Source of the DNA: Escherichia coli
Lineage (GTDB): Bacteria; Pseudomonadota; Gammaproteobacteria; Enterobacterales; Enterobacteriaceae
Assembly (NCBI RefSeq): GCF_003334305.1
Contig: NZ_QOWS01000031.1
Reading direction: 5' to 3' (one strand)
DNA length: 37,766 nucleotides
The notes below the pieces were generated by a model. It did not search any database and was not told the origin of the DNA. It saw only the letters and a list, made by a program, of their open reading frames with translations. The translations under genes were made by a program, and so were the position numbers. Positions 312-7,672 of the stretch are shown here, piece after piece (within the stretch, counting starts at the first letter, position 1; each line of letters opens with the position of its first letter).

Positions 312-1847
312 ATGGCTACATCAGTACAGACAGGTAAAGCTAAGCAGCTCACATTACTCGGATTCTTTGCCATAACGGCATCGATGGTAATGGCTGTTTA
401 TGAATACCCTACCTTCGCAACATCGGGCTTTTCATTAGTCTTCTTCCTGCTATTAGGCGGGATTTTATGGTTTATTCCCGTGGGACTTTGTGCTGCGGAA
501 ATGGCCACCGTCGACGGCTGGGAAGAAGGTGGTGTCTTCGCCTGGGTATCAAATACTCTGGGGCCGAGATGGGGATTTGCAGCGATCTCATTTGGCTATC
601 TGCAAATCGCCATTGGTTTTATTCCGATGCTCTATTTCGTGTTAGGGGCACTCTCCTACATCCTGAAATGGCCAGCGCTGAATGAAGACCCCATTACCAA
701 AACTATTGCAGCGCTCATCATTCTTTGGGCGCTGGCATTAACGCAGTTTGGTGGCACGAAATACACGGCGCGAATTGCTAAAGTTGGCTTCTTCGCCGGT
801 ATCCTGTTACCTGCATTTATTTTGATCGCATTAGCGGCTATTTATCTGCACTCCGGTGCCCCCGTTGCTATCGAAATGGATTCGAAGACCTTCTTCCCTG
901 ACTTCTCTAAAGTGGGCACCCTGGTTGTATTTGTTGCCTTCATTTTGAGTTATATGGGCGTAGAAGCTTCCGCAACCCACGTCAATGAAATGAGTAACCC
1001 AGGGCGCGACTATCCACTGGCTATGTTACTGCTGATGGTGGCGGCAATCTGCTTAAGCTCTGTTGGCGGTTTATCTATTGCGATGGTCATTCCGGGTAAT
1101 GAAATCAACCTCTCCGCAGGTGTAATGCAAACCTTTACCGTTCTGATGTCCCATGTGGCACCGGAAATTGAGTGGACGGTTCGCGTGATCTCCGCACTGC
1201 TGTTGCTGGGTGTTCTGGCGGAAATCGCCTCCTGGATTGTTGGTCCTTCTCGCGGGATGTATGTCACAGCGCAGAAAAACCTGCTGCCAGCGGCATTCGC
1301 TAAAATGAACAAAAATGGCGTACCGGTAACGCTGGTCATTTCGCAGCTGGTGATTACTTCTATCGCGTTGATCATCCTCACCAATACCGGTGGCGGTAAC
1401 AACATGTCCTTCCTGATCGCTCTGGCGCTGACGGTGGTGATTTATCTGTGTGCTTATTTCATGCTGTTTATTGGCTACATTGTGTTGGTTCTTAAACATC
1501 CTGACTTAAAACGCACATTTAATATCCCTGGTGGTAAAGGGGTGAAACTGGTCGTGGCAATTGTCGGTCTGCTGACTTCAATTATGGCGTTTATTGTTTC
1601 CTTCCTGCCGCCGGATAACATCCAGGGTGATTCTACCGATATGTATGTTGAATTACTGGTTGTTAGTTTCCTGGTGGTACTTGCCCTGCCCTTTATTCTC
1701 TATGCTGTTCATGATCGTAAAGGCAAAGCGAATACCGGCGTCACTCTGGAGCCAATCAACAGTCAGAACGCACCAAAAGGTCACTTCTTCCTGCACCCGC
1801 GTGCACGTTCACCACACTATATTGTGATGAATGACAAGAAACACTAA
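312..1847 (+). CDS. gadC: Glutamate:GABA antiporter (APC family, 511 aa)
   Basis: 511-aa ORF, highly hydrophobic multi-TM protein; sequence recognised as GadC; SD-like AGGGGG upstream; follows gadB. Confidence 0.93.
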
Positions 1848-1872
1848 CCATGTCTGAATGGTTATAAGACAA

Positions 1873-1900
1873 GGGAGCGATAAGTCATCGCTCCCTTTTT
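1873..1900 (+). terminator. Rho-independent terminator after gadC (GGGAGCGAT-loop-ATCGCTCCC followed by TTTTT)
   Basis: 9-bp GC-rich stem with 5-nt loop followed by T5 tract, 26 nt after the gadC stop. Confidence 0.7.
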
Positions 1901-1977
1901 CGTGCTTGCTGTCGTATTGACTTAACCGGGATAAGTACGAGAATGAGCGCACATCTGTTTACCGGAAACCAGCACAT

Positions 1978-3297
1978 ATGGATATCTGCTCCCGAAACAA
2001 GAAATTAACGATTAGAAGACCAGCGATACTAGTTGCACTGGCACTTTTACTGTGTAGTTGTAAAAGCACGCCTCCAGAGTCCATGGTGACACCACCAGCA
2101 GGTTCAAAGCCACCAGCCACGACGCAACAATCGTCACAACCGATGCGTGGCATCTGGCTGGCCACGGTTTCTCGGCTCGACTGGCCACCGGTTTCCTCGG
2201 TTAACATTAGTAACCCCACCAGCCGGGCCCGTGTACAACAACAGGCGATGATCGACAAACTGGATCATCTGCAACGTCTCGGCATAAACACGGTCTTTTT
2301 CCAGGTCAAGCCGGACGGTACCGCCCTGTGGCCATCGAAAATTTTGCCGTGGTCCGATCTTATGACCGGTAAGATTGGTGAAAATCCGGGTTACGATCCG
2401 CTGCAATTTATGCTCGACGAAGCCCACAAGCGTGGGATGAAAGTACACGCCTGGTTTAACCCCTATCGCGTATCGGTTAATACGAAGCCCGGTACTATCA
2501 GGGAACTGAATAGCACTCTGTCTCAACAACCGGCGAGCGTCTATGTGCAACACCGTGACTGGATCAGAACGTCTGGCGATCGCTTTGTCCTCGACCCGGG
2601 CATCCCTGAGGTTCAGGACTGGATCACATCAATAGTCGCTGAAGTGGTTTCCCGCTATCCGGTAGATGGCGTGCAGTTTGACGACTATTTCTATACTGAA
2701 TCACCGGGTTCACGGCTAAATGATAACGAAACGTACCGTAAATACGGAGGCGCATTTGCGTCAAAAGCAGACTGGCGGCGCAACAATACTCAGCAGTTAA
2801 TTGCAAAGGTATCACACACCATTAAAAGCATTAAGCCGGGAGTCGAATTTGGCGTTAGCCCGGCAGGCGTGTGGCGTAACCGATCACACGATCCGCTCGG
2901 TTCCGATACCCGAGGCGCGGCAGCCTATGACGAATCCTACGCTGACACCCGTCGATGGGTGGAACAAGGATTGCTGGATTACATTGCTCCCCAAATTTAC
3001 TGGCCGTTCTCACGGAGTGCCGCGCGTTATGACGTGTTGGCAAAATGGTGGGCGGATGTCGTTAAACCGACCAGGACCCGCCTGTATATCGGTATCGCCT
3101 TCTATAAAGTGGGTGAACCTTCAAAGATAGAGCCAGACTGGATGATTAACGGCGGCGTACCGGAACTGAAAAAGCAGCTCGATCTTAACGATGCGGTACC
3201 AGAAATTAGCGGCACCATCTTGTTCCGTGAGGACTATCTGAATAAACCGCAGACTCAACAAGCGGTCAGCTATCTGCAAAGTCGTTGGGGCAGTTAA
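1978..3297 (+). CDS. digH: Outer-membrane lipoprotein, glycoside-hydrolase-like (YddW/DigH family), 439 aa
   Basis: 439-aa ORF; N-terminal signal peptide with lipobox-like LLLCSC; sequence recognised as E. coli YddW (DigH). Confidence 0.85.
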   Translation: MDICSRNKKLTIRRPAILVALALLLCSCKSTPPESMVTPPAGSKPPATTQQSSQPMRGIWLATVSRLDWPPVSSVNISNPTSRARVQQQAMIDKLDHLQRLGINTVFFQVKPDGTALWPSKILPWSDLMTGKIGENPGYDPLQFMLDEAHKRGMKVHAWFNPYRVSVNTKPGTIRELNSTLSQQPASVYVQHRDWIRTSGDRFVLDPGIPEVQDWITSIVAEVVSRYPVDGVQFDDYFYTESPGSRLNDNETYRKYGGAFASKADWRRNNTQQLIAKVSHTIKSIKPGVEFGVSPAGVWRNRSHDPLGSDTRGAAAYDESYADTRRWVEQGLLDYIAPQIYWPFSRSAARYDVLAKWWADVVKPTRTRLYIGIAFYKVGEPSKIEPDWMINGGVPELKKQLDLNDAVPEISGTILFREDYLNKPQTQQAVSYLQSRWGS

Positions 3298-3668
3298 ACT
3301 CCCATGCTTACTTTGTAACAAGCCGGTGCTTTACCCACCGGCGTGTTACACCTTGTGAAATATCCCACTAGTAATCATGCTTACATAAGTCAAATTAACC
3401 ACGCAATTAACCACACTTAGTTAAACAGCTATAAATCCCTAATAAAAATGTATGAATATGAAAAACCATACGATATTCGCTGTCACCGAAAAATAATTAC
3501 GATGGGCTATACTCTTCTGAAGAACAGTAGCGTAGATTAAAACTGTCCTAAGTCGCTTATTTCTTTTCAGTATATCTTCATATTTCAGGAGAATATGGTG
3601 CAGTTAGTCGATCTCGCACGTTGCGTTTTGATTCCGTCTGATTTCCCAGCCTTATAAGGGTGTGAATT
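3298..3668 (+). promoter_or_regulatory. AT-rich intergenic region upstream of dosCP; probable promoter region
   Basis: 371-bp non-coding AT-rich gap between digH and dosC; no credible ORF with SD; exact promoter elements not resolved. Confidence 0.35.
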
Positions 3669-5051
3669 ATGGAGATGTATTTTAAAAGAATGAAAGATGA
3701 GTGGACCGGACTTGTCGAACAGGCAGATCCTTTCATTCGTGCTAAAGCCGCAGAAATTGCCCTTGCGCATGCTCATTATCTGAGTATCGAGTTTTATCGA
3801 ATTGTCCGCATCGACCCGCATGCCGAAGAATTCTTGAGTAATGAACAAGTTGAGCGGCAGTTGAAAAGTGCGATGGAACGCTGGATTATTAACGTGCTTT
3901 CTGCCCAGGTTGACGATGTCGAAAGGCTAATACAAATCCAGCATACCGTCGCGGAAGTGCATGCCCGCATAGGAATTCCGGTAGAAATTGTCGAGATGGG
4001 GTTTCGGGTGCTGAAAAAAATCCTCTATCCGGTAATCTTCTCTTCGGATTATTCCGCCGCAGAAAAACTTCAGGTCTACCATTTCTCGATTAACAGTATT
4101 GATATCGCTATGGAAGTGATGACCCGCGCGTTTACCTTTAGTGACAGTAGTGCCTCAAAGGAAGATGAAAACTATCGTATCTTCTCGTTACTGGAAAACG
4201 CCGAAGAAGAAAAAGAACGGCAAATAGCCTCAATACTTTCATGGGAAATAGATATTATCTATAAAGTCCTGCTGGATTCTGATTTAGGCAGCAGTTTGCC
4301 TTTAAGCCAGGCTGATTTTGGCCTGTGGTTTAACCATAAAGGTCGACATTATTTTAGCGGCATTGCCGAAGTGGGCCATATCTCCCGTCTGATTCAGGAT
4401 TTCGACGGTATTTTCAATCAAACCATGCGTAACACCAGGAATTTGAATAACAGAAGTTTGCGGGTGAAATTTCTATTACAGATAAGAAATACCGTATCGC
4501 AGATTATTACCTTGCTGCGTGAATTGTTTGAAGAAGTATCGCGCCACGAAGTCGGTATGGATGTACTGACGAAATTACTTAACCGCCGTTTCCTGCCGAC
4601 TATCTTCAAACGCGAAATTGCCCATGCCAACCGGACCGGTACACCACTGTCAGTGCTGATTATTGACGTTGATAAATTCAAAGAGATCAACGATACGTGG
4701 GGCCATAACACTGGCGATGAAATTCTGCGTAAAGTCTCTCAGGCCTTTTATGACAACGTCCGCAGTAGTGATTATGTTTTTCGCTACGGGGGCGATGAAT
4801 TTATCATTGTTTTGACTGAAGCTTCTGAAAACGAAACGTTACGTACCGCAGAACGTATTCGCAGTCGGGTGGAGAAAACCAAACTGAAAGCCGCAAACGG
4901 CGAGGATATTGCCCTCTCACTTTCCATCGGTGCCGCCATGTTTAATGGTCATCCTGACTATGAGCGCCTCATTCAAATAGCCGATGAAGCTCTGTATATC
5001 GCCAAAAGACGAGGTAGAAACCGTGTTGAACTCTGGAAAGCCAGTCTTTAG
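3669..5051 (+). CDS. dosC: Heme (globin-coupled) oxygen-sensing diguanylate cyclase, 460 aa
   Basis: 460-aa ORF; C-terminal GGDEF domain with intact RYGGDEF motif; N-terminal globin-sensor-like region; recognised as DosC (YddV). Confidence 0.9.
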   Translation: MEMYFKRMKDEWTGLVEQADPFIRAKAAEIALAHAHYLSIEFYRIVRIDPHAEEFLSNEQVERQLKSAMERWIINVLSAQVDDVERLIQIQHTVAEVHARIGIPVEIVEMGFRVLKKILYPVIFSSDYSAAEKLQVYHFSINSIDIAMEVMTRAFTFSDSSASKEDENYRIFSLLENAEEEKERQIASILSWEIDIIYKVLLDSDLGSSLPLSQADFGLWFNHKGRHYFSGIAEVGHISRLIQDFDGIFNQTMRNTRNLNNRSLRVKFLLQIRNTVSQIITLLRELFEEVSRHEVGMDVLTKLLNRRFLPTIFKREIAHANRTGTPLSVLIIDVDKFKEINDTWGHNTGDEILRKVSQAFYDNVRSSDYVFRYGGDEFIIVLTEASENETLRTAERIRSRVEKTKLKAANGEDIALSLSIGAAMFNGHPDYERLIQIADEALYIAKRRGRNRVELWKASL

Positions 5052-5075
5052 ATGCGCCAGGATGCAGAGGTAATC

Positions 5076-7475
5076 ATGAAGCTAACCGATGCGGATAATG
5101 CCGCCGATGGCATTTTTTTCCCCGCCCTTGAGCAAAATATGATGGGTGCGGTGTTAATTAACGAAAATGATGAAGTGATGTTTTTCAACCCCGCCGCAGA
5201 GAAGCTCTGGGGGTACAAACGTGAAGAAGTCATTGGCAATAACATTGATATGCTGATTCCGCGGGATTTGCGTCCTGCGCATCCTGAATACATTCGTCAT
5301 AACCGTGAAGGCGGTAAAGCGCGTGTCGAGGGGATGAGTCGGGAGCTGCAGCTGGAGAAAAAAGACGGCAGTAAAATCTGGACCCGTTTTGCGCTATCGA
5401 AAGTGAGCGCCGAGGGGAAAGTTTATTACCTGGCGCTGGTACGGGATGCCAGCGTAGAAATGGCGCAAAAAGAACAGACTCGACAATTGATTATTGCCGT
5501 TGACCATCTCGACCGACCGGTGATTGTCCTCGATCCGGAACGCCATATTGTGCAGTGCAATCGCGCATTTACCGAAATGTTTGGTTACTGCATTAGCGAA
5601 GCCAGCGGTATGCAGCCCGATACACTCCTGAACATTCCTGAATTCCCTGCCGATAACCGCATTCGTTTACAACAGTTGCTATGGAAAACCGCCCGCGATC
5701 AGGATGAATTTCTGCTGTTGACGCGCACCGGTGAAAAAATCTGGATTAAAGCCTCTATCAGCCCGGTTTATGACGTGCTCGCGCATCTGCAGAACCTGGT
5801 AATGACCTTCTCGGATATCACCGAAGAACGGCAAATCCGCCAGCTTGAAGGCAATATTCTCGCCGCCATGTGCAGCAGCCCGCCATTTCATGAAATGGGG
5901 GAAATCATTTGTCGTAACATCGAATCTGTTCTCAACGAATCGCATGTTTCGCTGTTCGCACTGCGCAACGGGATGCCGATACACTGGGCGTCATCTTCCC
6001 ACGGTGCAGAAGTTCAAAATGCGCAAAGCTGGTCAGCGACCATTCGTCAGCGTGATGGCGCGCCTGCGGGGATCCTGCAAATTAAAACCTCGTCAGGAGC
6101 AGAAACCAGCGCCTTTATCGAACGCGTGGCAGATATCAGTCAGCATATGGCCGCGCTGGCGCTGGAACAGGAAAAAAGCCGCCAGCATATTGAACAACTC
6201 ATCCAATTTGATCCGATGACCGGTCTGCCAAATCGCATTAACCTGCACAATTACCTCGATGACCTGGTCGACAAAGCCGTCTCTCCGGTGGTGTATCTCA
6301 TCGGTGTTGACCATATTCAGGATGTGATTGATAGCCTTGGCTATGCGTGGGCCGATCAGGCATTGCTGGAAGTGGTCAATCGCTTTCGTGAAAAACTCAA
6401 ACCGGATCAGTATCTCTGTCGTATCGAAGGTACGCAGTTTGTCCTCGTGAGCCTGGAAAACGACGTCAGTAACATTACCCAAATCGCCGATGAGCTACGG
6501 AATGTGGTCAGCAAGCCGATAATGATTGACGATAAACCCTTCCCGCTTACCTTGAGTATTGGCATCAGCTACGACGTGGGTAAAAACCGCGATTACCTGC
6601 TCTCCACTGCTCACAATGCAATGGATTATATTCGCAAGAATGGCGGTAACGGCTGGCAGTTCTTCAGCCCGGCGATGAACGAAATGGTAAAAGAGCGTTT
6701 GGTTTTAGGCGCAGCGCTGAAAGAAGCGATTAGCAATAACCAACTGAAACTTGTTTACCAGCCGCAAATCTTCGCAGAAACGGGTGAACTGTACGGCATC
6801 GAAGCCCTTGCGCGCTGGCACGATCCCCAGCATGGTCATGTGCCCCCTTCACGGTTTATTCCTCTCGCAGAAGAGATTGGTGAAATCGAAAATATTGGGC
6901 GCTGGGTCATCGCGGAAGCTTGCCGTCAGTTAGCAGAATGGCGTAGCCAGAATATTCATATCCCGGCGCTTTCCGTTAACTTGTCGGCACTGCACTTTCG
7001 CAGTAATCAACTGCCTAATCAGGTGTCTGATGCAATGCACGCCTGGGGTATTGACGGCCACCAGCTGACGGTAGAAATCACGGAAAGCATGATGATGGAA
7101 CACGATACCGAAATCTTTAAGCGCATTCAGATCCTGCGTGATATGGGCGTGGGCTTATCGGTAGATGATTTTGGTACGGGCTTTTCCGGATTATCCCGCT
7201 TAGTCAGTCTTCCGGTAACGGAAATCAAAATTGACAAAAGTTTTGTCGATCGTTGTCTGACCGAAAAACGCATCCTTGCCTTACTTGAAGCCATTACCAG
7301 CATTGGGCAAAGCCTCAATTTAACCGTCGTGGCGGAAGGCGTCGAAACCAAAGAGCAATTTGAGATGCTACGCAAGATCCACTGTCGCGTTATTCAGGGA
7401 TATTTCTTTTCCCGCCCCCTACCCGCCGAAGAAATTCCAGGCTGGATGAGCAGCGTGTTACCGCTGAAAATCTGA
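5076..7475 (+). CDS. dosP: Heme-PAS oxygen-sensing c-di-GMP phosphodiesterase (PAS-PAS-GGDEF-like-EAL), 799 aa
   Basis: ORF open from 5052 but ATG at 5076 is preceded by GAGGT SD (5064-5068) and gives 799 aa; EAL motif (YGIEALARW) present; recognised as DosP (YddU). Confidence 0.88.
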   Translation: MKLTDADNAADGIFFPALEQNMMGAVLINENDEVMFFNPAAEKLWGYKREEVIGNNIDMLIPRDLRPAHPEYIRHNREGGKARVEGMSRELQLEKKDGSKIWTRFALSKVSAEGKVYYLALVRDASVEMAQKEQTRQLIIAVDHLDRPVIVLDPERHIVQCNRAFTEMFGYCISEASGMQPDTLLNIPEFPADNRIRLQQLLWKTARDQDEFLLLTRTGEKIWIKASISPVYDVLAHLQNLVMTFSDITEERQIRQLEGNILAAMCSSPPFHEMGEIICRNIESVLNESHVSLFALRNGMPIHWASSSHGAEVQNAQSWSATIRQRDGAPAGILQIKTSSGAETSAFIERVADISQHMAALALEQEKSRQHIEQLIQFDPMTGLPNRINLHNYLDDLVDKAVSPVVYLIGVDHIQDVIDSLGYAWADQALLEVVNRFREKLKPDQYLCRIEGTQFVLVSLENDVSNITQIADELRNVVSKPIMIDDKPFPLTLSIGISYDVGKNRDYLLSTAHNAMDYIRKNGGNGWQFFSPAMNEMVKERLVLGAALKEAISNNQLKLVYQPQIFAETGELYGIEALARWHDPQHGHVPPSRFIPLAEEIGEIENIGRWVIAEACRQLAEWRSQNIHIPALSVNLSALHFRSNQLPNQVSDAMHAWGIDGHQLTVEITESMMMEHDTEIFKRIQILRDMGVGLSVDDFGTGFSGLSRLVSLPVTEIKIDKSFVDRCLTEKRILALLEAITSIGQSLNLTVVAEGVETKEQFEMLRKIHCRVIQGYFFSRPLPAEEIPGWMSSVLPLKI

Positions 7476-7672
7476 CAAATTCCTCTCGCCCGCACTCGCG
7501 GGTTTTCATTTAACGTGACACTGTCACTTAAATACTGTGATTTCAGCTACGATTCCGGGAGATTCCTTCCTTAACTTCCCCTCTTGCACCAAAACTGCAC
7601 TACGCTGCACAAATGTTGATCAAAAGTTAAAAAATATAACTTTAAGCCAGCATTCTGGCGCTTATCCCGGCA

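What the first reader, a model, noticed from the sequence alone, without database searches (positions are those of the whole stretch)
5049..5078. dosC and dosP are in the same reading frame, separated by a single amber (TAG) codon
dosC ends with TAG at 5049-5051, and the following 8 codons (MRQDAEVI) lead in-frame into the dosP ATG at 5076. Amber read-through (for example in supE suppressor strains, or low-level natural read-through) would produce one diguanylate cyclase-phosphodiesterase fusion polypeptide from two proteins that are already known to work as a complex. The arrangement also implies tight translational coupling.
Basis: seen in the sequence. Interest (0 to 1): 0.42.

Follow-up and report, generated by a model that had tools for sequence, protein, structure and literature searches.

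The report
Ordinary in-frame dosC–dosP gene junction

Summary
dosC (3669-5051) ends in TAG at 5049-5051. Eight open codons (MRQDAEVI, 5052-5075) then lead in frame to the dosP ATG at 5076.

It is not more than chance would give (about 0.2 for a 24-nt spacer), and the sequence is already known. The eight codons begin with an ATG that abuts the TAG. They are the historical 807-residue "Ec DOS" N-terminus, still used in PDB entries and residue numbering.

- E. fergusonii has TAA.
- Citrobacter rodentium has TGA, and C. amalonaticus has TAA, each with a 26-nt out-of-frame spacer.
- Three further genera have TAA and are out of frame.
- Only the ribosome-binding site GCAGAGGTAA and the second ATG are invariant in the six Escherichia and Citrobacter junctions that could be aligned.
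- On the order of 1000 E. coli genomes lack a functional dosC but keep dosP.

No read-through structure, Rfam match or proteomic evidence was found.

The mechanical part of the idea holds. A suppressor strain, or one point mutation, gives a 144.6-kDa fusion. One clone (15 complete genomes) carries TAG→TAT and an intact 1268-codon DosC-DosP ORF.

Verdict: a known, ordinary junction of low interest, with one side-finding worth a look.

The parts
3669..5051 (+). dosC (dgcO/yddV): globin-coupled diguanylate cyclase, 460 codons plus stop
   Evidence: ORF; RefSeq annotation of identical DNA; Pfam Protoglobin, DosC_2nd and GGDEF on orthologues.
5049..5051 (+). dosC stop codon TAG, followed by A
   Evidence: An exact 30-mer around it is present in 5049 genomes, and 168 more carry a nearby C5057T variant with TAG kept. 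TAT is found in 15 genomes, TAA in 1 K-12 derivative and TGA in 0.
5052..5075 (+). 24-nt intercistronic spacer, open in the dosC/dosP frame (MRQDAEVI); it equals the first eight codons of the historical 807-residue DosP
   Evidence: PDB chains 9bgv, 9cdr and 1v9y start with MRQDAEVIMKLTD. PMC11543664 Methods says these eight residues are extra relative to UniProt P76129 and are kept for historical numbering. The 5' half is the least conserved part of the junction.
5052..5054 (+). Upstream ATG abutting the stop (TAGATG); the old annotated dosP start and probably not the main start
   Evidence: It is ATT in Escherichia strain E69 (L005) and ATA in E. fergusonii, and it is absent or out of frame in Citrobacter. 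No Shine-Dalgarno-like sequence lies at a usable distance upstream (read from the sequence).
5066..5071 (+). dosP Shine-Dalgarno sequence (AGAGGT), 5 nt before the ATG
   Evidence: The block GCAGAGGTAA is invariant in the six Escherichia and Citrobacter junctions aligned. The three more distant junctions were not aligned. Its role as a ribosome-binding site is inferred from the consensus.
5076..7475 (+). dosP (pdeO/yddU): haem-PAS c-di-GMP phosphodiesterase, 799 codons plus stop; start as in RefSeq and UniProt
   Evidence: The ATG is invariant in the aligned relatives.
7485..7513 (+). Terminator-like hairpin plus T-run just after dosP (probable end of the dosCP transcript)
   Evidence: Consensus scan only.

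Best explanation
This is the ordinary junction of the two-gene dosCP (dgcO-pdeO) operon of E. coli. dosC terminates normally at TAG. The 24-nt spacer carries the dosP ribosome-binding site (AGAGGT, 5 nt upstream), and dosP starts at ATG 5076.

The shared frame, the stop-free spacer and the amber stop are a recent, lineage-specific coincidence within Escherichia. They are not a selected read-through device. The coincidence has three real but incidental consequences:
1. An ATG that happens to abut the stop made early annotators call an 807-residue DosP. This is the source of the 'His77/Met95' numbering.
2. In amber-suppressor laboratory strains, a fraction of ribosomes should make a 144.6-kDa DosC-Gln-MRQDAEVI-DosP fusion, as they extend every TAG-terminated protein.
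3. A single base change at the stop fuses the genes, and this has happened in one natural clone.

Shown here: the sequence anatomy, the annotation history, and the variation among genomes and species. Inferred: Shine-Dalgarno function, negligible read-through in wild-type cells, and fusion synthesis in supE strains.
For: - Anatomy.
- RefSeq places the dosP start at the second ATG.
- The eight codons are the historical N-terminus (PMC11543664).
- Cross-species junction table and alignment: the stop is TAG, TAA or TGA; the spacer is 24, 26, 43 or about 157 nt, or the genes overlap; only Escherichia is in frame. The stop and the first 9 nt of the spacer are the most variable columns, while GCAGAGGTAA plus ATG are invariant in the six aligned Escherichia and Citrobacter junctions.
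- Linker codons change non-synonymously.
- dosC is dispensable. Remnant-only dosC with an intact dosP occurs in roughly 1000 of 5316 genomes. dosC occurs without dosP in Kluyvera, Kosakonia and Enterobacter mori.
- There is no significant RNA structure at or after the stop (z = -0.05) and no Rfam match.
- A proteome-wide read-through survey of wild-type E. coli reported events for TAA and TGA genes only. It does not mention dosC or dosP in any of its 50 supplementary files (PMC11126739).
- No paper linking dosC to amber read-through was found.
Against: - Within E. coli the TAG, the 24-nt spacing and the upstream ATG are nearly fixed: at least 5217 of 5316 genomes. These genomes are more than 97% identical here, so this is what common descent predicts and carries little weight.
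- The base after the stop is A, a context recalled (not tested here) as relatively permissive for supE suppression.
- Read-through rises in cold and starvation (PMC11126739), and dosCP is a stationary-phase operon (PMC5635695), so a small amount of fusion in wild-type cells cannot be excluded.
- No experiment on this junction was available to me.
Confidence: 0.85

Rival explanations
1. Programmed or selected amber read-through: a regulated fraction of ribosomes decode the dosC UAG in wild-type E. coli and make a functional single-chain cyclase-phosphodiesterase. This would tether two enzymes that act as a complex.
For: - The ORFs are in frame with no second stop.
- TAG is leakier than TAA, and read-through rises under stress (PMC11126739).
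- DosC and DosP are reported to act together in a degradosome-associated complex (PMC5635695; PMC11543664).
- A natural clone with a constitutive fusion ORF shows that the fusion is at least tolerated.
Against: - Stop identity, spacer length and frame are not conserved even in E. fergusonii and Citrobacter.
- E. fergusonii uses TAA, the tightest stop.
- The linker codons are not under coding constraint.
- There is no stimulatory structure and no Rfam element.
- About a fifth of E. coli genomes have no functional dosC.
- A K-12 derivative with TAA at this position exists as a sequenced strain.
- There is no proteomic trace.
Confidence: 0.03
2. The ATG at 5052 is a genuine, additional dosP start. 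It would be used by ribosomes that terminate at the abutting TAG and re-initiate (TAGATG), giving an 807-residue isoform alongside the 799-residue protein. In that case the in-frame arrangement follows trivially from stop-start adjacency.
For: - Stop and ATG are directly adjacent, a classic coupling geometry.
- The ATG is kept in nearly all E. coli.
- The recombinant 807-residue protein folds, binds haem and is regulated by O2 (PMC11543664; PDB entries).
Against: - The ATG is ATT in Escherichia strain E69 and ATA in E. fergusonii, and it is absent in Citrobacter.
- The eight residues vary freely.
- A conserved, well-placed Shine-Dalgarno sequence serves the second ATG, not the first.
- RefSeq and UniProt curators moved the start to the second ATG.
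- In dosC-deleted lineages no upstream translation exists to feed re-initiation, yet dosP is kept intact.
Confidence: 0.1

Closest known systems
E. coli dosCP (dgcO-pdeO, yddV-yddU) operon
   Same: The DNA is identical: 100% matches with RefSeq dosC/dosP annotation in thousands of genomes. It has the same neighbours (gadC, digH upstream; ddpX downstream) and the same 24-nt junction.
   Different: Nothing differs. This is that locus, from a non-K-12 strain (2 mismatches to MG1655 in 431 nt).
Historical 807-residue 'Ec DOS' annotation of DosP
   Same: The eight 'intergenic' codons, MRQDAEVI, are exactly the extra N-terminal residues of the 807-residue form used in crystal and cryo-EM work.
   Different: Current curation (UniProt P76129, RefSeq) and the comparative data here place the start at the second ATG.
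Programmed UAG read-through as in gammaretrovirus gag-pol
   Same: Two ORFs lie in one frame, separated by a single UAG. Read-through would give an N-terminal-protein/enzyme fusion (MuLV described in PMC4178896, listed).
   Different: In MuLV the stop, the frame and a 3' pseudoknot are conserved and required. Here none is conserved and no structure is predicted. The downstream gene also has its own ribosome-binding site and start.
Translationally coupled operon junctions with a short intercistronic spacer
   Same: The stop-to-start distance is 24 nt, the downstream Shine-Dalgarno sequence lies inside the spacer, and the two products are reported to act together.
   Different: Coupling has not been shown. 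dosP persists intact where dosC translation is abolished, and spacer length ranges from an overlap to about 157 nt in relatives.
Single-chain GGDEF-EAL (cyclase-phosphodiesterase) proteins
   Same: The TAG->TAT clone and the deletion hybrids encode one polypeptide with an active-type GGDEF domain and an EAL domain.
   Different: These arose by recent mutation within E. coli and combine a globin sensor with the DosP modules. No older family with globin + GGDEF + EAL appeared among the hits. Their function is untested.

Membership tests
E. coli dosCP operon | Sequence identity to annotated dosC and dosP, in the same order and with the same neighbours | tested here: met
   100% identity to RefSeq-annotated dosC/dosP, in the gadC-digH-dosC-dosP-ddpX context.
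Programmed stop-codon read-through | Downstream ORF in frame with no second stop before it | tested here: met
Programmed stop-codon read-through | Stop-codon identity and reading frame conserved among relatives | tested here: not met
   the stop is TAG, TAA or TGA; spacers are 24, 26, 43 or about 157 nt, or the genes overlap; only Escherichia is in frame.
Programmed stop-codon read-through | Protein-coding pattern of conservation in the read-through linker | tested here: not met
   MRQ to IPS (E. fergusonii), Q to P, M to I and A to T substitutions. The conserved bases are the Shine-Dalgarno block, not codon positions.
Programmed stop-codon read-through | Stimulatory 3' context or RNA structure | tested here: not met
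   The fold of 4990-5110 has z = -0.05. The hairpin at 5097-5114 has z = -1.2, and its left arm is not kept in E. fergusonii. There is no Rfam match.
Programmed stop-codon read-through | Read-through product detected in wild-type cells | not testable with these tools
   Literature only: dosC/dosP are absent from a proteome-wide read-through data set, and no paper on the subject was found.
Translationally coupled gene pair (termination-reinitiation) | Short distance between the upstream stop and the downstream start, with the Shine-Dalgarno sequence near the stop | tested here: met
   The spacer is 24 nt, and the Shine-Dalgarno sequence at 5066-5071 lies 15-20 nt after the stop.
Translationally coupled gene pair (termination-reinitiation) | Downstream translation depends on upstream translation | tested here: inconclusive
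   This is indirect. dosP stays intact in roughly 1000 genomes whose dosC start is deleted but whose promoter region is kept, which suggests independence. No expression data were available.
807-residue DosP isoform starting at ATG 5052 | Start codon conserved in orthologues | tested here: not met
   It is ATT, ATA or absent in L005, E. fergusonii and Citrobacter.

The most novel reading that the evidence does not exclude
Because the two genes are one base change away from a full-length fusion, E. coli has already run the experiment. A globally spread clinical clone (15 complete genomes; 37 contigs in public data) carries TAG->TAT and must translate DosC only as a 1268-residue globin-GGDEF-PAS-PAS-GGDEF*-EAL protein. 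If that single chain is stable and active, it is a new natural architecture in which two haem O2 sensors with opposite outputs sit on one polypeptide. It would also be a ready-made tool to test whether DosC-DosP proximity matters.

A corollary is that amber-suppressor hosts such as TG1, used for later DosP constructs, would make some covalent MBP-DosC-DosP from the malE-dosCP plasmid. This should be excluded as a contributor to the reported co-purification.
Probability: 0.3. Interest if true: 0.4.

Novelty: already known. Interest (0 to 1): 0.15.

Why it matters
The finding itself matters little. It is a well-studied operon junction, and the in-frame 'linker' is already implicit in the 807- versus 799-residue annotation history of DosP.

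Three practical points follow:
1. Residue numbers in the DosP literature are offset by eight because of the ATG that abuts the TAG.
2. DosC/DosP work in supE hosts should check for a 145-kDa species, or about 187 kDa with MBP.
3. Annotation pipelines label the TAG->TAT allele as a dosC pseudogene. This hides an intact fusion ORF that could serve as a natural test of enzyme tethering in local c-di-GMP signalling.

Tried and rejected
- I looked for a read-through-promoting RNA structure and for any Rfam family. Nothing significant turned up.
- I searched the literature for dosC/yddV together with amber, UAG or read-through and for a DosC-DosP fusion protein. Nothing specific was found.
- The supplements of the RF1-deletion proteomics paper (PMC4333366) are not held. 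A proteome-wide read-through study does not list dosC or dosP.
- The Povolotsky & Hengge 2016 paper and Tuckerman 2009 are not in the library. I therefore could not check gels of the malE-dosCP product or whether the hybrids have been described.
- I considered that within-E. coli conservation of TAG means selection. I rejected this because the genomes are more than 97% identical here and the next species out differ.
- I considered that the in-frame state explains the deletion hybrids. I rejected this as special, because one in three deletions restores a frame in any arrangement.
- About 83 of 5316 E. coli genomes have some other, unresolved variant within 5038-5063. Sense-codon variants other than TAT were not queried individually.
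- The single genome-contig scan with one protein returned only close relatives. More distant junctions had to be collected through DosC homologues.
Full report
**1. The observation**

The window reads …AAA GCC AGT CTT TAG ATG CGC CAG GAT GCA GAG GTA ATC ATG AAG CTA….
- dosC is the 460-codon ORF 3669-5051, with TAG at 5049-5051.
- The following eight codons (MRQDAEVI, 5052-5075) contain no stop.
- ATG 5076 opens the 799-codon dosP ORF, which ends at 7475.
- The ORF listing reports one 807-codon ORF from ATG 5052.

The DNA is E. coli dosC-dosP. A 431-nt query finds it in 5,354 of 5,426 complete genomes, with RefSeq dosC/dosP annotation. RefSeq starts dosP at the second ATG. Every coordinate in the finding is therefore right.

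**2. Whether it exceeds chance**

It does not. A shared frame has probability 1/3, and eight stop-free codons have probability about 0.68, so the product is about 0.23. Roughly 8% of E. coli genes end in TAG (PMC11126739). One of the nine adjacent same-strand gene pairs in this window is in frame (coordinates).

**3. The eight codons are already known**

They start with an ATG that directly abuts the stop (TAGATG). They are the N-terminus of the historical 807-residue 'Ec DOS'. PDB chains 9bgv, 9cdr and 1v9y begin MRQDAEVIMKLTD. [quoted passage not shown] The in-frame relation between dosC and this extended ORF is therefore implicit in the literature.

**4. What is conserved**

I collected dosC-dosP junctions from other lineages and compared them.

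| Lineage | Stop | Spacer | In frame | Note |
|---|---|---|---|---|
| E. coli and cryptic Escherichia clades | TAG | 24 nt | yes | Q→P in three; first ATG→ATT in one |
| E. fergusonii and a matching metagenome contig | TAA | 24 nt | yes | linker ATA CCA TCG… (IPS, no ATG) |
| Citrobacter rodentium | TGA | 26 nt | no | |
| C. amalonaticus | TAA | 26 nt | no | |
| C. freundii-labelled genome | TAA | 43 nt | no | |
| [Enterobacter] lignolyticus | TAA | about 157 nt | no | |
| Pseudocitrobacter | TAA | called start overlaps dosC | no | |

Kluyvera, Kosakonia and Enterobacter mori have dosC with no dosP at all.

In the six-sequence alignment of Escherichia and Citrobacter junctions, the stop codon and the first nine spacer bases are the most variable columns. 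GGA-GCAGAGGTAA and the second ATG are invariant. That block is a good Shine-Dalgarno sequence (AGAGGT) 5 nt before ATG 5076. No comparable site precedes ATG 5052. The three more distant junctions were not aligned.

**5. Within E. coli**

Exact-word searches gave the following counts.
- The wild-type 30-mer around the stop is in 5049 genomes.
- A C5057T variant that keeps TAG is in 168 genomes.
- TAA is in one MG1655 derivative from Boston. It is probably an engineered amber-free strain, which is my inference.
- TGA is in none.
- TAT is in 15 genomes.
- About 83 genomes carry other variants that I did not resolve.

Near-fixation of TAG among genomes that are more than 97% identical is what descent predicts.

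Separately, on the order of 1000 genomes (B2-type; 10 of 13 sampled rows at 98.9% identity) retain only a 165-nt dosC remnant. The deletion removes the dosC start and most of the gene but keeps the upstream region, and dosP is intact. Frequent loss of DosC has been noted before (PMC5635171). Together these points argue that DosP does not need DosC translation or a DosC fusion.

**6. No read-through signal**

- The junction RNA folds no better than shuffles (z = -0.05).
- A hairpin at 5097-5114 is weak (z = -1.2), and its left arm is not kept in E. fergusonii.
- Rfam finds nothing.
- In wild-type E. coli the read-through order is TGA > TAG > TAA. The proteome-wide survey reports read-through proteins for TAA and TGA genes only (PMC11126739). 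dosC and dosP appear nowhere in its supplements.
- I found no paper connecting dosC with amber read-through.

**7. What is right in the interpretation**

Decoding the TAG gives a 1268-residue, 144.6-kDa protein. TG1 is an amber-suppressor strain (PMC8164376), and the DosP laboratory uses it as an expression host (PMC11543664). If the parental malE-dosCP plasmid was expressed in TG1, some covalent MBP-DosC-DosP is expected. This is an inference that I could not check, because Tuckerman 2009 is not held.

**8. Side-finding: natural fusions**

The 15 TAT genomes come from Switzerland, Taiwan, the UK, Ecuador and elsewhere.
- The three loci fetched with 4-kb flanks are identical over 8 kb, and a fourth genome gives the identical 1268-residue protein.
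- All four carry the same DosP allele, and the three fetched with 4-kb flanks also share a frameshifted ddpA, so they are one clone.
- The 1268-codon ORF is intact in all of them.
- PGAP annotates dosC there as a pseudogene 'missing C-terminus', whereas GenBank entries call the whole ORF DosP (VCY91112.1; seen on 37 contigs).

In-frame deletion hybrids also recur.
- A 923-residue DosC(1-436)::DosP(337-799) hybrid arises from a 1035-nt deletion, with an IS1 upstream. It is in 23 complete genomes and on more than 351 contigs.
- A 1015-residue form is on 31 contigs.
- 983- and 1054-residue forms also occur, and the 1054-residue form uses MRQDAEVI as its linker.

The E. albertii type strain has a 1725-nt dosC'-'dosP deletion with a broken frame. 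The locus is evidently a deletion hotspot in decay or flux.

**9. Verdict**

The feature is real, ordinary and already known in substance. The best explanation is a standard operon junction whose frame, open spacer and amber stop are coincidental and recent (confidence 0.85). Programmed read-through gets about 0.03, and use of the upstream ATG as a minor second start gets about 0.1. The only element worth follow-up is the natural TAG→TAT fusion clone, together with the caution about supE hosts.

Noticed in passing
window 5049-5051; L011 2498-2500, L020-L022 4015-4017: Fifteen complete E. coli genomes have dosC TAG->TAT, giving an intact 1268-codon DosC-Tyr-MRQDAEVI-DosP ORF (144.6 kDa). They form one clone: the three loci fetched with 4-kb flanks are identical over 8 kb, a fourth genome gives the identical fusion protein, and all carry the same DosP allele. 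Hosts are human, from Switzerland, Taiwan, the UK and Ecuador among others. PGAP calls dosC a pseudogene there, while GenBank VCY91112.1 annotates the whole ORF.
   Followed up: partly
window ~4977-6011 (deleted); L027/L028 2501-5272: A 923-residue in-frame hybrid, DosC(1-436)::DosP(337-799), arises from a 1035-nt deletion and has an IS1 inserted upstream of the gene. It is present in 23 complete genomes and on more than 351 contigs. It keeps the globin and active GGDEF domains plus the degenerate GGDEF and EAL domains, but loses both DosP PAS domains. Other hybrids of 1015 (31 contigs), 983 and 1054 residues exist.
   Followed up: partly
window 3629-4886; L003 2955-3001: In roughly 1000 E. 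coli genomes (B2-type, for example MS8345, EC958, IHE3034), the dosC start and most of the gene are deleted. This leaves the upstream region, a 47-nt internal scrap and the last 165 nt, followed by an intact dosP. In MS8345 the ddp operon is also absent, and osmC follows dosP.
   Followed up: partly
window 5097-5121 (+): A terminator-like hairpin (AATGCC-GCCGAT-GGCATT) followed by seven T's lies inside dosP codons 8-16. It is a possible intra-operon attenuator. However, its stability is not significant (z = -1.2) and the left arm is not kept in E. fergusonii.
   Followed up: partly
L009 (E. albertii NBRC 107761) ~3017-3019: The E. albertii type strain has a 1725-nt deletion from dosC codon ~353 to dosP codon ~459, with a 1-nt irregularity at the joint, so the hybrid ORF is broken. 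This is another independent dosC-dosP deletion.
   Followed up: partly
L013 (strain PEC422) 2500-2501; window 1054-5044: A 4-kb deletion joins truncated gadC to the last 4 nt of dosC plus the TAG. It removes digH and dosC while leaving the dosP ribosome-binding site and gene intact.
   Followed up: no
P0141 (655 aa), P0204 (541 aa), P0054 (1091 aa): Further chimeric ORFs occur in E. coli assemblies: DosC::DdpA (26 contigs), DosC::DdpX and DosP::DdpA. These show repeated deletions across dosC-dosP-ddpX-ddpA.
   Followed up: no
L010: A 519-nt contig in a Terrisporobacter petrolearius (Firmicutes) assembly is 96% identical at the protein level to E. coli DosP and has coverage of 0.76. This is almost certainly E. 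coli contamination of that assembly.
   Followed up: no
window 4990-4997 with 5062-5069: In the minimum-energy fold, CUCUGUAU inside dosC pairs with AUGCAGAG, which covers part of the dosP Shine-Dalgarno sequence. Such pairing could make dosP initiation depend on ribosomes translating dosC. However, the fold is no better than shuffles, and covariation was not tested.
   Followed up: no
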